From the NCBI GenBank assembly GCA_963665775.2, contig CAXXTF010000001.1:1-64000 (forward strand): a DNA stretch of 64,000 bases. Reading direction: 5' to 3'. Origin of the DNA: Dehalococcoidia bacterium. GTDB taxonomy: Bacteria; Chloroflexota; Dehalococcoidia; SM23-28-2; RBG-16-64-32. Every line of letters begins with the position of its first letter. The first letter of the stretch is position 1. The position numbers and the translations under genes were made by a program. A model generated the notes under the pieces. The model made no database searches, was not told the origin of the DNA, and saw only the letters and a list, made by a program, of their open reading frames with translations. This document shows positions 17,999 through 22,874 of the stretch, piece after piece.

Positions 17999-19842
17999 CT
18001 ACGGGACCTCCAACTGCACGGGGCTGCCGACTTCCGGACAGGGCTCTATCTGGCCGAACGGCAGGCCTGCCACAAAGCGCAGAAGCTTGAGCGAGTCCAC
18101 GGAGTCGACGTCGTCATCACAGTCAATATCGCCGAAGATTGATGCGACCTCACTACCGACGTCCGGACAGGGCTCCGTCTGGCCGAAGGGCAGGCCTGCG
18201 ACAAAGCGCAGAGTCTTGAGCGAGTCCACGGAGTCAACGTCGCCGTCGCAGTCAATGTCACCAAAGAGTTGTGGAATGACGCCTTCCGTGGCCTCAACAG
18301 TGTTGGAGAAATCCGAAACCCCTTCCGTGCTGAAGGCACGGATCTTGTAGCAGTAGGCCTGCTCGAGCGTCAGACCATTCCCGTAATCTGTGTCCGTATA
18401 GGAGGTGACATCTTCGTCGACGGAGTCAAGGAGGACGAAGTCCTCAGGGGCGACAGACGCACAATCGCCCACTGCGCGCCAGATCTCGTAGCCGATCTCA
18501 CCAGCAACGTCGTTCCATGCTAGGCCGATCGAGTTCGCGGCAGCGGCGGCGAGGCCGGTTGGGATTGGCGGAGGTGGTCCGCCGCCCATCGGGTAGATGC
18601 TGGCCACGCCGGCGATATCGTCGGCACAGGGATCACGGAGGACCCCCATGTAGTTCACGTTCAGAGCAGGGCATTTGTCCTCTTCAAGACCTATGGTGCA
18701 AACAACGGCGGTGGGATGGGTAAGGCCGACCAGATGCCCGATCTCGTGGAGGAAAACGGTCTCGAGGTCGTAGAGATCGCTACCACAATCGCCGGTCCCG
18801 TCCACCCTCCAGCCGGCGCCAACGTGGTCGGTGTCTATCTCAATGTCGGCGTCGAGCAACTCATTAGTTTGGGTGCCCCAGCATGTCCAGGTTACCTGTA
18901 GGGTCGATTCCCCGTGGTCAGGGTCACCAGATTCTATACCCCAGGTGATGTCGATGAAGCCATCTGGATCTTCGGTCTCCGAGCAGCCGTCGGCGCCGCT
19001 GACACGGGCGGTGTTGCCGATGGGACCGAAGGCGATAAACGACTCGGGAAGTTTCTGCCAGGTGTGCAGTGCGTCAGCCGCGGCCATGCGCGTTTCCTCG
19101 GCGCTTATCTGGGCGGGGCGACCGGATTCAGCGTTGATCCAGATCGGGACCGGGATATCATCAGTTGACCATTTGAACACCTCAACGACGAACGCGCTCT
19201 GTACTATCCCTCGGCCGGTGTCGAGGGGATCCTGTTCCGTATTGAGGTGTCGCGCGCTGGCCAGGCCGGTATTCTGCATCCTCAACTCGACGGGCAGACC
19301 GATGCCGTTGACGATCCCGTCGGCCGTGATGCTGAATTTACTCTGGAATCCCTCGGTCAATACGAGTCCTACATCGTCTATCTCCCTCAGGAAGACAACG
19401 ACTTGCTCTCCAACCGTGAACTCCGGGCTGGTCCCCACGTTCAGCCGATAGTCACAAAATTCGCCTCCGGATACCACGATCGTGACCAACCCCTCGGACG
19501 CCTCAATGCTACCTGCAGCCTGGATCACCTGGTGGGGAGCGATGGACACCAAGGTGACGATGGAGGGGCCACCCTCCCTAGTGCAGCTCTGCAGCTGCAT
19601 GACGGTCCCCTCCACTATCAGGTTGGAGTCGGCGGTCATGTCGGCTAACGTCACGAGGGTCATGACGCCGCCACCGCCAGCCGTGTGGGACGAGCCCAGA
19701 GCTCGTGGCGATTCACACGTCAAGCCCAGGGAATTGGATGGCTCACCGAGTGCGGCCCGCAGGCCGAGCGTCGCGCCGCCAAAGCGATGAGGAGTACTAA
19801 CAGCGTTGCCCTGCGGATGAGAAGAGTAGCTTGGGTTTTCAT
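17999..19842 (-). CDS. Matrixin-like (M10) metalloprotease + fibronectin-III + dockerin-like pair; frameshift in the signal peptide near 19775
   Basis: HEIGHLVGLTH zinc motif; FN3 (LAWNDV...YEIWR...YCYKIRA); two GDxDCDxDVDSVD repeats; ATG 19842 with a GGAGG RBS encodes a signal peptide in another frame. Confidence 0.85.
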
Positions 19843-19973
19843 AGCGCACGTCCTCCCGCTGGTTTAGTCCTCAGAGGGTCACATGATACTCCAATAGTGA
19901 GCAGCGTCAACCGTGATCCAATATTGAAGTGACGCTGGTCAGGTATGTCCGCGGTACTTGCTGTTATCGCTAC

Positions 19974-20690
19974 CTAGCCTCCGATGTCGGGACACGGCTC
20001 TCTCTGGCTGACGGGTAGGCCAGCCAGGAAGCGCAGAATCGTGAGAGAGTCAATGGCATCTATATCATTGTCACAGTCCACGTCGCCGAAGAGAGAAGCA
20101 ACCTCGCTGCCTATATCCGGGCAGGGCTCCGTCTGGCTTACAGCTAGGCCGGCGACATGCTGCAGCTCCTTGAGGGAGTCCACGGAGTCCACATCCAAAT
20201 CGCAGTCAACGTCGCCAAAGGGAGGTGTCACGATGCCGATGGTGCCGCCGATTGGCGTTACGGGAATGTCGAAGAAGCGGGGATCGGTTAACTGCACCAC
20301 CGTTACTGCTAATATGGCCATTCCCTCAGCTGGCCCTGCGACGAAGGTAACGGTCCCGAGCGTAAGGTCACCGTTCAAGGCAGCGGCGGAAGCACCCACG
20401 AGCCGCACGGTGTCAGTGTCTATTTTGTTGACACTGCACGCACCCGCCAACGATGTGCACTCTGTGGCTTCCACCAGGCTGCCATCGTACCTGACATCTA
20501 TGATGTACGCAGCGATTCCCGTGCCCGAGGCCTTCGCGCTTAAGCTCAGTGTTGTGGTCTGCCCTGGCGCCACCGTATCGGAGCCGATACCCAGAGAGCT
20601 AACGCCGGCCTCGGCCGGCCCTGCCACCACTAGCCATGCCAACATGAGTAGAGCGGACGCGATGGCGGAGATCCGACGTCCCCTTTTCAT
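19974..20690 (-). CDS. Secreted cohesin-like + dockerin-like adaptor protein
   Basis: Signal peptide (PAEA); beta-rich cohesin-like domain (VAPGQTTT...IDVRYDGSLV...LGTVTF...GGTI); C-terminal dockerin pair. Confidence 0.75.
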   Translation of the reverse strand: MKRGRRISAIASALLMLAWLVVAGPAEAGVSSLGIGSDTVAPGQTTTLSLSAKASGTGIAAYIIDVRYDGSLVEATECTSLAGACSVNKIDTDTVRLVGASAAALNGDLTLGTVTFVAGPAEGMAILAVTVVQLTDPRFFDIPVTPIGGTIGIVTPPFGDVDCDLDVDSVDSLKELQHVAGLAVSQTEPCPDIGSEVASLFGDVDCDNDIDAIDSLTILRFLAGLPVSQREPCPDIGG

Positions 20691-20921
20691 GGTCTATCCC
20701 GAAGACTCCGCAACCACATTCGCTTGCCACGCTTCGAACCGGTCACGCCTGTGCCCCTTCTCTTGCTGTGCCAAACGGCAAAACCGCGCAGACCGTTTAG
20801 CCATTCAACTTTGACAGTCTCACGATAGCAGAGTATCTGCTAAGGGCCAAGCGTCATTGGGGGGCGCAGATAGCACAGATAGCAGTACATGACTTCAGTT
20901 GGGAGCGCCCGAGGGCCGCCT

Positions 20922-22874
20922 CTATTTGTGACCGAAGCGACGGCTGATCCCCAAGAGGCCGCCGAGTCCCAGTAGTGCCATCCCCACAACCGGGACGAAT
21001 GGCTTGGAACTGGCGGACTGGGAGTCGAGATCAACCGTGAGCTCAGTGATGGCTACCGCGTCACCGATGTCTGGGCAAGGCTCCGTCTGACTCACAGATA
21101 GACCGGCGATGTGCAGCAGCGCCTTGAGGGAGTCCACTGAGTCGACGTCCCGGCCGCAGTCCAGGTCTCCGAACACTATGGTGAGTTCGCTGCCGATGTC
21201 GGGACAGGGTTCCGTCTGGCTAACCGTTAAGCCTGCGACAAAGCGGAGTTCCTTCAGCGAGTCTACCGAATCGACGTCACCGTCGCAGTCTACGTCTCCA
21301 AGAACATTCGCGGCTGCGACTCTTAGAACCTTCTCGCCGGCCTGGTGTTCGAACTTGAGAGGGGCAGCGACGAGAATGGAGCCGAATCCCACGATCGTGG
21401 CATCTTCCTCGTTAGTTTCGCCCGGATTAATGCGGATGATGTCGCCCTCGCTGAAGCCGGCCGCGCTAAGGACTTGGATCTTATCCATTCCACTGTTTGC
21501 ATGCTCGGTTAAGGCCGTAGACTGAACCGGAGTAGATGTTGGCGAAGGCGTCGGGCTAGAGCTGGGTTCAGGGCTTGGAGTTGCTGCCGGCGATGATGTG
21601 GGGCTAGCGTTGGGATCGGGAGTCGGTGTCGGCGCCGGCGATAATGTCGGGCTAGCGTTAGGGTCAGGGGTTGGCGCGGGTGCCGGCGACGATGTGGGAC
21701 TAGCGTTGGGATCGGGAGTCGGTGTCGATGCCGGCGATGAAGTGGGACTAGCGTTGGGATCAGGGCTTGGTGTAGGTGCCGGCGACGATATGGGGCTAGC
21801 GCTGGGGTCAGGGCTTGGTGTGGCTGCAGGTGACGGTGTCGGGCTAGCGCTGGGATCGGGAGTGGGCGTGGGGTCAGGCGGGGGCGTAGGAGTTGAGCTT
21901 GGGGACGGCGTGGGTGTTGGTATGGGAGGCGGTGTTGGTGTTGGTGTTGGTGTCGGTGTCGGTGTCGGAGCCGGTGTGGGAGCCGGCGTTGGAATGCTCA
22001 CCCCCGGGACCGAATACCGTCCCATAAAGGACAATCCGAGGTTGGTCGCGCTGATCTCGTGAGTCGTCACACCAAAGCCTGGTAAATCAATGATGGCGTC
22101 TGGCCACGTGTGTCCGCCGCCGTCGACAATGTAAAACTCCACCGCTACGCCTTCGTCGCAACCGCCGTACTGCCGACGGCGAACGTTCTCTGATACTTGC
22201 GTTTCGGTTGGGCTACCGCAGCCGTTTCTTGCTGCCCAGCTCTGGACGGCCGATTGTGCAGTTGAGAACGGGACTATTGCGTCGGCGGTTCCATGAAAGG
22301 CGATCAAGGGAAGAGGGCGAGAGGGAGAGCAGTTAGAGACTCCTGCTACGGCCGCCACTGCCGCGATGCGGTCTGAGAGACCGCAACCGAGCGAAGATGC
22401 CATCATACCTCCCATTGACATGCCTGTGGCGTAGACACGCGCAGGGTTGATGCAGAGCTCGGACTCCAGTTGGCTTAAGAGGCCAGCGAAGAAGCCGACG
22501 TCTCCGCTCAGGTTCCATGCGCCTCCCTGGGCCTCCGGGGCAACGACGATGAAGCCAGAGGGTGACATAGAGGTTAGGAGCATCTGCTGGCTCGGGCTCG
22601 AGCCCAGGCCGTGCAGGTTAAACACTAGGGGCACGGCATCTGAGCCGGTGTAGGACGATGGGACGTATAGGATGTAATCCCGAGAGTTGTACTGCTCTGT
22701 ACTGGAGCCGGAGCTGTGTGGACGCGCCGGTGCGCAGTCTGCGGCGGCGGCGATCGCTGGCTTTACATTGAGGAAACCAAGGGACATCAAGGTCGCGGCG
22801 ATAGCCAGGAAGATCAACCCGCCAACCGGGACGAACCATTGACTTCTGCGAATTCCCTGTTCGGTTTTCACCAC
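20922..22874 (-). CDS. Secreted esterase (LpqC/PHB-depolymerase-like) + Pro/Thr linker + dockerin-like pair + C-terminal TM anchor
   Basis: GMSMGG nucleophile elbow, HGTAD, GGHTWP; PT repeats; [13 protein letters not shown] x2; hydrophobic tail followed by SRRFGHK. Confidence 0.85.
21530..21990 (-). repeat. Pro/Thr linker with a 48-bp (16-aa) tandem repeat, ~7 copies
   Basis: [16 protein letters not shown] units preceded by (PT)n. Confidence 0.9.

What the first reader, a model, noticed from the sequence alone, without database searches (positions are those of the whole stretch)
17999..22874. Cohesin-dockerin 'mini-cellulosome' of an esterase and a protease in a non-cellulolytic lineage
Seen: three consecutive co-oriented secreted proteins each carry the same tandem pair of ~43-aa repeats, [36 protein letters not shown] (Ca-binding loop + helix, with two Cys per repeat). 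One is a membrane-anchored esterase on a long PT stalk, one a matrixin-FN3 protease, and one is only a cohesin-like domain plus dockerin. Established: DxDxDxxVDxxD pairs are the dockerin signature and bind cohesins. Inference: the TM-anchored dockerin captures the cohesin-dockerin adaptor, which could chain on itself, forming a disulfide-stabilised surface complex for ester/protein digestion rather than cellulose. Displaying the dockerin-only protease would need a further cohesin source such as a multi-cohesin scaffoldin, which is not in this window. The shared S-V residues at loop positions 10-11 in five of six repeats suggest one binding specificity.
Basis: partly seen in the sequence, partly recalled or inferred. 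Interest (0 to 1): 0.82.

Follow-up and report, generated by a model that had tools for sequence, protein, structure and literature searches.

The report
Plug-and-socket surface display in Dehalococcoidia
The three genes carry dockerin 'plug' tags (one also a cohesin 'socket'), like 16 other reading frames in this likely Dehalococcoidia genome, and the tagged proteins likely clip one at a time onto two single-cohesin sockets encoded elsewhere that are predicted to be fixed to the cell wall, so this is probably a genome-wide surface-display system and not a self-contained three-protein mini-cellulosome.

Summary
The modules are real. Residues 29-156 of the middle protein model as a type I-like cohesin (Z 16.6). 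The repeat pair models as a dockerin: the top 14 structural matches are all from cohesin-dockerin entries.

The three genes are not a dedicated unit. The 91%-complete genome has 19 dockerin-tagged ORFs and only three cohesins, all single. Two lie outside the window, end in LPPTG+TM sorting signals and directly follow giant dockerin-tagged proteins; a sortase and peptidoglycan genes are present. That gene pair recurs in six relatives, four with an adaptor next. A sister family has an unrelated-looking tag/receptor pair at the same gene positions.

The window cluster was not found conserved. The protease gene is frameshifted just after its signal peptide in four runs from four studies, and the esterase is frameshifted in two of them. 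Binding is inferred.

Verdict: a new variant of non-cellulosomal, ScaE-like display (compare the planctosome). My searches found no paper on it in Dehalococcoidia, but this scan noted the system before in other Dehalococcoidia genomes.

The parts
20922..22874 (-). Secreted alpha/beta-hydrolase (PHA-depolymerase/LpqC-like esterase) with PT stalk, small beta domain, dockerin and C-terminal membrane tail (P0003)
   Evidence: NCBIfam NF050058 140.8 bits against cut-off 150; 10-nt deletion at 22528 (codon 116) in runs X8 and X11
22005..22718 (-). Esterase catalytic domain, Ser153 / Asp198 / His255 by motif
21528..21998 (-). Pro/Thr-rich stalk, residues 293-449
21060..21299 (-). Dockerin (two Cys-containing repeats) of the esterase
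20925..20999 (-). Hydrophobic C-terminal tail with basic end, no LPxTG motif; likely membrane anchor
19974..20690 (-). Secreted cohesin-dockerin adaptor (P0002)
   Evidence: full-length relatives P0006-P0008 at 58-60% identity
20223..20606 (-). Type I-like cohesin domain, residues 29-156; 54-57% identical to the two LPPTG-anchored cohesins of the genome
   Evidence: VIA-align Z 16.6, rmsd 1.8 A over 126 residues to 6kgc_A; Z 16.1 to 2xdh; Foldseek E 6e-10
19980..20216 (-). Dockerin of the adaptor
19720..19842 (-). 40-codon ORF with ribosome-binding site and signal-peptide-like sequence: the likely true start of the protease gene, out of frame with the rest
   Evidence: start of the 67%-identical homologue P0284; no indel in 4 of 4 runs
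17999..19849 (-). Matrixin-like (M10) metalloprotease with FN3-like region and dockerin (P0001); no in-frame signal peptide; Leu at the Met-turn position
   Evidence: Pfam Peptidase_M10 E 5.8e-5, 23.4 bits against cut-off 24
18716..18748 (-). Zinc-binding motif HExxHxxGxxH, residues 368-378
18023..18262 (-). Dockerin of the protease
   Evidence: AF2 pLDDT 93.5; VIA-align Z 8.2, rmsd 2.6 A over 70 residues to 4dh2_D

Best explanation
The three proteins carry the same dockerin tag as 16 other ORFs of the genome, and the exported ones likely bind, one per socket, to two single-cohesin proteins encoded elsewhere that are predicted to be joined to peptidoglycan by sortase. Steps: (1) shown: folds, sorting motifs, sortase and peptidoglycan genes, gene order; (2) inferred: sortase cleaves LPPTG and links the cohesin to the wall, as for ScaE; (3) inferred: Ca2+-loaded dockerins bind the cohesin face formed by strands 8-3-6-5, with one broad specificity (S/A-V at positions 10-11); (4) inferred: the window adaptor plugs into an anchored cohesin and offers a new cohesin further out, acting as a 1:1 spacer that could chain but adds no valency; (5) inferred: the main client is the giant protein encoded next to each anchor, while enzymes such as the window's esterase and protease are exchangeable cargo. 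In this species the window's protease likely is not exported, and the esterase is likely held by its own membrane tail, so the cluster looks like dispensable accessory cargo.
For: Folds: cohesin; dockerin. Genome census: 19 dockerin ORFs among 26,511 six-frame ORFs; 3 cohesins, all single. The two outside the window (C1:775551-776225, C2:5521-6237) end in LPPTG + TM + basic tail and directly follow giant dockerin proteins. Sortase over the Pfam cut-off (TIGR01076 over cut-off, best model class F below cut-off); Mur ligases, MraY and PBPs present. Gene order giant-dockerin then anchored cohesin at 9 loci in 7 genomes (G000 x2, G015, G019 x2, G036, G191, G193, G194), followed by a cohesin-dockerin and a further cohesin with a hydrophobic tail in 4 genomes. 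In family f6 the same giant ends in another tag and is followed by a sorting-signal protein and sortase gene(s) in 7 of 9 genomes examined; one G040 copy carries its own TM tail. Co-occurrence in 40 relatives: both modules 17, dockerin only 3, cohesin only 2, neither 18. Of 150 cohesin homologues analysed, 47 have a TM or LPxTG+TM tail and 50 carry the dockerin. Charged or polar residues on strands 3, 5, 6 and 8 are conserved across 218 domains (D65 74%, N88 72%, R96 88%, D136 83%) and kept in the window cohesin (surface exposure inferred from alternation). The window cohesin groups with the genome's own anchored cohesins (81/85, moderate) apart from the operon adaptors (99/96).
Against: The genome is 91% complete, so a multi-cohesin scaffoldin could be missing; 64 of 150 homologues have two or more cohesins. 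A three-repeat DUF11 protein at C2:141613 runs, across a frameshift, into a dockerin and could be a second-tier scaffold of another fold (not matched to cohesin). Co-occurrence is partly circular (the cohesin profile was built from these genomes), kin are not independent, and my dockerin profile missed divergent dockerins in G015, G193 and G194 giants, so 'negative' genomes may hold other types. Three genomes have dockerins with no cohesin found. Sortase occurs in 37 of 40 relatives regardless of the modules. Some anchored cohesins lack a clear LPxTG motif. Several dockerin ORFs in the genome are remnants or broken.
Confidence: 0.68

Rival explanations
1. One reading: a dedicated three-protein complex in which the membrane-tethered esterase dockerin captures the adaptor, which chains, to digest esters and proteins.
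For: The genes are adjacent and co-oriented; the esterase dockerin is followed by a TM tail, an arrangement seen in 6 of 177 fetched dockerin proteins, two of them copies of this gene; both folds are real.
Against: 16 other ORFs share the tag; window dockerins are no closer to each other than to others; the cluster was not found conserved; the protease lacks an in-frame signal peptide; module polarity leaves no free cohesin for the protease.
Confidence: 0.08
2. Split specificity: the anchored cohesins are private sockets for the giant proteins next to them, and most enzyme dockerins bind the adaptor-type cohesin, another receptor, or act as Ca2+-binding stability or sorting tags.
For: The G000 giants' dockerins lack both Cys and form a visibly separate subtype; each anchor gene sits beside a giant; 19 dockerins face 3 cohesins; 3 of 40 relatives have dockerins without a cohesin found.
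Against: Positions 10-11 are S/A-V in giants and enzymes alike; in G019, G191 and G015 the giants' dockerins do carry the Cys pair and resemble those of the neighbouring adaptors; dockerin expansion (13-86 matches) goes with cohesins in 12 of 12 f1 genomes.
Confidence: 0.16
3. Cross-linking or adhesion: adaptors polymerise head to tail and bridge membrane-tethered dockerins to wall-anchored cohesins on the same or neighbouring cells, building a matrix and not an enzyme display.
For: Both polarities are membrane- or wall-bound in the genome (2 TM-tailed dockerins, 2 LPPTG cohesins); the adaptor's linker is only a few residues; many clients are non-enzymatic.
Against: Several clients are hydrolases (trypsin-like, S8, M23, nuclease-like) or a sugar-dehydrogenase-like propeller; self-chaining needs matching specificity, which is untested.
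Confidence: 0.08

Closest known systems
ScaE anchoring scaffoldin of Ruminococcus flavefaciens (LPXTG, sortase; PMC12484212, passages read)
   Same: Single cohesin with a sortase signal as the wall anchor for dockerin-bearing proteins; adaptor-type cohesin-dockerin proteins exist alongside.
   Different: Fold is nearer type I and the Archaeoglobus non-cellulosomal cohesin (Z 16.1-16.6) than ScaE type III (2zf9, Z 12.5); no X-module dockerin seen; no multi-cohesin primary scaffoldin found in this genome; no glycoside hydrolase among the clients scanned; Chloroflexota host.
Planctosome of Nemodlikiaceae (PMC6461901, passages read; a genome-based hypothesis)
   Different: Planctosome anchor is a 2,210-aa lamin-tail-domain protein on an outer membrane and its adaptor has a HYR domain; here the anchor is a 224-238-aa LPPTG cohesin and the clients are mixed.
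Non-cellulosomal cohesin-dockerin sets: Ca. Stygibacter (PMC8542988, passages read), Limihaloglobus and Lachnoclostridium MSJ-17 (PMC11557425, passages read), Archaeoglobus fulgidus (2xdh) and Clostridium perfringens (2ozn) (PDB rows); amylosome and mucinolysome (PMC4611034, PMC12997984, search listing only)
   Same: Cohesin-dockerin used outside cellulose breakdown; MSJ-17 has single TM-anchored cohesins and up to 39 dockerin proteins.
   Different: Cys-pair dockerin type not found in 150 other Chloroflexota genomes searched; conserved operon with an uncatalogued giant protein; apparent replacement by another tag/receptor pair in a sister family.

Membership tests
Cohesin domain | Nine-stranded jelly-roll beta-sandwich matching solved cohesins | tested here: met
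   pLDDT 91.6; Z 16.6, rmsd 1.8 A over 126 residues; the top 15 VIA rows are all cohesin entries
Cohesin domain | Pfam PF00963 above gathering cut-off | tested here: not met
   15.0 bits (window) and 21.3 bits (anchored paralogue) against 24.1; a divergent member by fold
Dockerin (type I-like) | Tandem F-hand Ca2+ loop + helix repeats with the dockerin fold | tested here: met
   DxDxDxxVDxxD loops in 6 of 6 repeats; Z 8.2, rmsd 2.6 A over 70 residues, top 14 VIA rows are chains of dockerin entries, unrelated rows at Z 2.4 or below; Foldseek best E 2.8e-3
Dockerin (type I-like) | Ca2+-dependent high-affinity binding to a cognate cohesin | not testable with these tools
   Needs ITC, ELISA or native gel; inferred here from fold, gene order and co-occurrence
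Cellulosome | Multi-cohesin primary scaffoldin | tested here: not met
   3 cohesins of this family found, all single, in a 91%-complete genome; a DUF11-repeat candidate of another type remains untested
Cellulosome | Dockerin-bearing cellulases (GH5, GH9, GH48) | tested here: not met
   No credible GH hit among the 16 dockerin ORFs scanned with Pfam (3 remnants not scanned); the one GH5 has no dockerin; GH9 not found; the GH48 search was uninformative, its control being silent
ScaE-type sortase-anchored cohesin | Single cohesin + LPxTG + TM + basic tail, with sortase and peptidoglycan genes | tested here: met
   Met by two genes outside the window, not by the window's own cohesin
ScaE-type sortase-anchored cohesin | Covalent attachment to the wall shown | not testable with these tools
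   Needs cell-wall proteomics
Matrixin (M10) metalloprotease | HExxHxxGxxH plus Met-turn | tested here: inconclusive
   Zinc motif present; Leu stands at the Met-turn where 9 of 9 orthologues in relatives have Met; Pfam 23.4 against 24
Extracellular scl-PHA depolymerase type 1 (NF050058) | Score above the curated cut-off | tested here: not met
   140.8 against 150; works like an LpqC/PHB-depolymerase-family esterase, substrate unknown

The most novel reading that the evidence does not exclude
In this order of peptidoglycan-bearing Dehalococcoidia, the core job of the cohesin-dockerin pair is to tether a giant, uncatalogued 1,000-1,800-aa surface protein, possibly the S-layer or coat subunit, to the wall through a sortase-anchored socket encoded in the next gene. 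A sister family has swapped in a different, uncatalogued plug-and-socket pair (a tandem-repeat C-terminal tag and a small LPPTG-anchored beta domain) at the same two gene positions. The window's esterase, protease and adaptor are cargo that borrowed the plug.
Probability: 0.3. Interest if true: 0.78.

Novelty: new variant of a known kind. Interest (0 to 1): 0.5.

Why it matters
It extends sortase-anchored cohesin-dockerin display to Chloroflexota. In the held literature I found no paper with dockerin, cohesin and Dehalococcoidia and none on this among 7 papers holding dockerin and Chloroflexota (listing only). Peer et al. 2009 was not held and may list such modules. The conserved giant-protein/anchor operon offers a testable model of how surface coats are fastened in wall-bearing Dehalococcoidia; Tepidiforma has peptidoglycan under an S-layer (PMC10284905, passages read). 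The apparent swap in family f6 points to a new natural protein-protein coupling pair. Cys-bearing dockerins with divergent recognition residues could give orthogonal tags for designer scaffolds. The three-gene cluster itself is ordinary cargo and partly decayed.

Tried and rejected
Complex prediction of the anchored cohesin (C1:775551 gene, residues 37-163, 76-row alignment) with the window protease dockerin (123 rows): score 0.05 twice against a mark of 0.32; no verdict, controls not folded, no evidence either way. The window cohesin itself was not tested in a complex.

Sequencing runs: no RNA holder listed, so no statement on expression.

Assembly error as the cause of the protease frameshift was rejected.

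A multi-cohesin scaffoldin of this family was sought with Pfam and two custom profiles and not found.

The giant protein had no Pfam, NCBIfam, Atlas (best 0.79, dockerin clusters) or PDB-sequence match beyond its dockerin; fold untested.

f6 tag and receptor against dockerin and cohesin: hhalign probabilities 0.1% and 0.7% on shallow alignments, no Pfam above cut-off; homology is not excluded by fold.

Fisher tests on co-occurrence and on Cys pairing are not used, because kin are not independent.

GH48 search uninformative. Peer et al. 2009 (PMC3035643) not held. No earlier scan note on this genome or sequence.
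Full report
OBSERVATION. The three minus-strand ORFs exist at the stated coordinates. Each ends in, or holds near its end, a tandem pair of about 43-residue repeats with a DxDxDxxVDxxD loop, a helix and two cysteines; positions 10-11 are S-V in five repeats and A-I in one. 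Pfam sees the modules only below cut-off, so I folded them. The 238-aa protein models at pLDDT 91.6. Its residues 29-156 match type I cohesins (Z 16.6, rmsd 1.8 A over 126 residues) and the non-cellulosomal Archaeoglobus cohesin (Z 16.1); the first 15 rows are cohesin entries (Foldseek E 6e-10). The protease's last 91 residues model at pLDDT 93.5 and match dockerins: best Z 8.2, rmsd 2.6 A over 70 residues, 14 dockerin entries on top, unrelated rows at Z 2.4 or below (Foldseek agrees at weak E-values).

CORRECTIONS INSIDE THE WINDOW. The protease ORF has no hydrophobic leader (best 15-residue hydropathy 1.1, against 2.3-2.5 for the other two). A 40-codon ORF starting at ATG 19842 behind GGGAGG encodes a signal-peptide-like stretch resembling the start of the 67%-identical homologue P0284, but it is out of frame with the rest. 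Contigs from 4 of 4 runs laid (4 studies, of 22 runs listed) show no indel there; X8 covers it with zero gaps, and X2 may be the window's source. The gene also has Leu at the Met-turn, where all 9 orthologues in relatives have Met. A 10-nt deletion at 22528 (codon 116, before the catalytic Ser153) appears in 2 of the 4 runs, each in one contig of depth under 5, so possibly an error, but at the same place in two studies. Of 16 strain differences in the three genes, 11 change a residue. The esterase is PHA-depolymerase/LpqC-like but under the curated cut-off. FN3 is seen by motif only.

THE GENOME. Homologues are labelled Chloroflexi or Dehalococcoidia by their sources. The genome is 2.35 Mb, 2 contigs, 91% complete. 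A profile built from the repeats finds 19 ORFs (37 repeats) among 26,511 six-frame ORFs (19 again). Cargo includes trypsin-like, S8 and M23 peptidases, a GSDH/beta-propeller protein, a nuclease-like protein and several small or unknown domains; some are remnants. No credible glycoside hydrolase is among the 16 scanned. The genome's one GH5 lacks a dockerin and GH9 was not found. Cohesins of this family number three, all single: the window's, and two at C1:775551-776225 and C2:5521-6237 that end in LPPTG, a TM helix and a basic tail. Each directly follows a giant dockerin-tagged protein of no known family. A sortase (nearest model class F) and Mur ligases, MraY and PBPs are present. The window cohesin is 54-57% identical to the anchored ones and groups with them at moderate support (81/85), away from the adaptors of the conserved operon (99/96) (43 domains, those under 105 residues or duplicated left out). 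It likely arose from an anchored copy.

RELATIVES. In 40 genomes of the family and order, the dockerin profile hit 20 and the cohesin profile 19: both 17, dockerin only 3, cohesin only 2, neither 18. In family f1 the split is 12 both (13-86 dockerin matches each), 1 weak cohesin only, 11 neither. Caveats: the cohesin profile came from these genomes, kin are not independent, many assemblies are incomplete, and divergent dockerins in G015, G193 and G194 giants were missed by my profile and read by eye. Sortase is in 37 of 40 whatever the modules. The dockerin type was not found in 150 other Chloroflexota at E 1e-12. The order giant-dockerin then anchored cohesin holds at 9 loci in 7 genomes, and in 4 genomes a cohesin-dockerin and another tailed cohesin follow. 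The giant was found in 13 of 34 order genomes at least 85% complete. In f6 it ends in a different tag and is followed by a sorting-signal protein and sortase gene(s) in 7 of 9 genomes examined; G040 has one copy with its own TM tail and one tagged copy at a contig end, and G033 has another tail. The same protein thus appears with three different attachment devices, the strongest indirect sign that the cohesin-dockerin pair here serves to anchor. By contrast the window trio was not found conserved: the protease is in 9 of 12 dockerin-positive and 0 of 12 other f1 genomes, always with a dockerin but with no cohesin or esterase in about 1.5 kb of flank; the esterase is in 3 of 27 relatives, none with this dockerin. 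Among the 150 best of 589 cohesin homologues, 47 have a TM or LPxTG+TM tail, 50 a dockerin and 64 two or more cohesins, so multi-cohesin forms exist in the family though not in this assembly.

MECHANISM. Shown: folds, motifs, gene order, census. Inferred from the established behaviour of these families: Sec export, sortase linkage of the LPPTG cohesins to peptidoglycan, Ca2+-dependent docking of tagged proteins one per socket. S/A-V dominates positions 10-11 (159 of 215 distinct repeats), suggesting one broad class. D65, N88, R96 and D136 on the strands that form the binding face in solved cohesins (recalled: strands 8-3-6-5) are conserved across 218 domains and kept in the window copy. All 183 repeats with the loop Cys also have a downstream Cys, mostly at position 31, while 18 of 32 without it still have one; the disulfide is plausible but not shown. 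The adaptor would extend a socket outwards and could chain, but cannot raise valency. I put this model at 0.68, split specificity at 0.16, the dedicated trio at 0.08 and a cross-linking role at 0.08.

COMPARISON. It works like ScaE-type anchoring (PMC12484212, passages). It is not a cellulosome: no multi-cohesin scaffoldin and no dockerin cellulases were found. Non-cellulosomal precedents exist: the planctosome with anchor, cohesin-dockerin adaptor and Zn-peptidases (PMC6461901, passages), Ca. Stygibacter (PMC8542988, passages), Limihaloglobus and Lachnoclostridium MSJ-17 (PMC11557425, passages), and the amylosome and mucinolysome (search listing only). So a protease- or esterase-bearing cohesin-dockerin system is not new as a kind. 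For this lineage: 0 papers hold dockerin, cohesin and Dehalococcoidia; 7 hold dockerin and Chloroflexota, none on this by title and abstract start; 1 holds Dehalococcoidia, sortase and peptidoglycan; PMC11557425 has no 'Chlorofl' in its main text and PMC10284905 no 'dockerin' or 'sortase'. Subscription papers are mostly not held, Peer et al. 2009 could not be read, and no supplements were opened; these may list Chloroflexota modules. Two earlier notes of this scan describe the same kind of system in other Dehalococcoidia genomes; they are unchecked leads, seen after my reading was formed.

VERDICT. Real modules, partly right interpretation. The window holds accessory, partly decayed clients and one adaptor of an order-level display system whose core lies elsewhere. 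New variant of a known kind; interest 0.5. The bolder reading, tethering of a surface-coat protein with a swappable plug-and-socket pair, has probability 0.3 and would merit 0.78.

Noticed in passing
G000:C2:2361-6237 (L002) and G000:C1:~770900-776225 (L001): Two copies of a giant secreted protein with no family match except its dockerin, each followed by an LPPTG-anchored cohesin; the C1 copy is split by in-frame stops or frameshifts in this assembly.
   Followed up: yes
L089-L093, L134, L135 (G039, G029, G031, G037, G035, G197, G198): In family f6 the giant ends in a ~150-aa uncatalogued tandem-repeat tag, followed by a sorting-signal protein with a small uncatalogued beta domain and by sortase gene(s): a candidate second plug-and-socket pair. 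The tag also follows a cohesin in G031 (L028).
   Followed up: partly
G000:C2:140496-143647 (L105) and C2:934867-939147: A second EF-hand-like C-terminal tag on two cadherin-type proteins, next to a protein with three near-identical DUF11 repeats that runs across a frameshift in a PT run into the dockerin studied here. Of 120 homologues listed, all have 3-9 repeats, 52 have a TM tail and 21 the second tag: scaffold-like, untested.
   Followed up: partly
G000:C2:372268-373793 (L060): A second matrixin-dockerin gene, cut at its start by an IS-type transposase and frameshifted; so both copies of a client that is intact in 9 relatives are damaged here.
   Followed up: partly
L132, L133 (G193, G194), L098 (G015): Divergent dockerins that keep both Cys but change the recognition positions, beside divergent cohesins: a possible orthogonal specificity class.
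   Followed up: no
window 28660-31031 (-): Two WxL-like genes and a WxL-interacting protein with TM tail (Pfam WxLIP_PGBD E 2.5e-9; WxL E 0.0014 for the one scanned): a Firmicutes-style cell-surface cluster, between two IS3-type elements (26593-28040, 36806-37669).
   Followed up: no
window 32093-36172 (-): Tyrosine-integrase-like and P4-type primase-like ORFs (named by eye): an integrated mobile element near the cluster.
   Followed up: no
G000 C1:732727, C2:68836, 352302, 517633, 761895, 928796, 971695: Seven further proteins with LP(P/G/T)(T/A)G-type sorting signals, three sharing one N-terminal domain.
   Followed up: no
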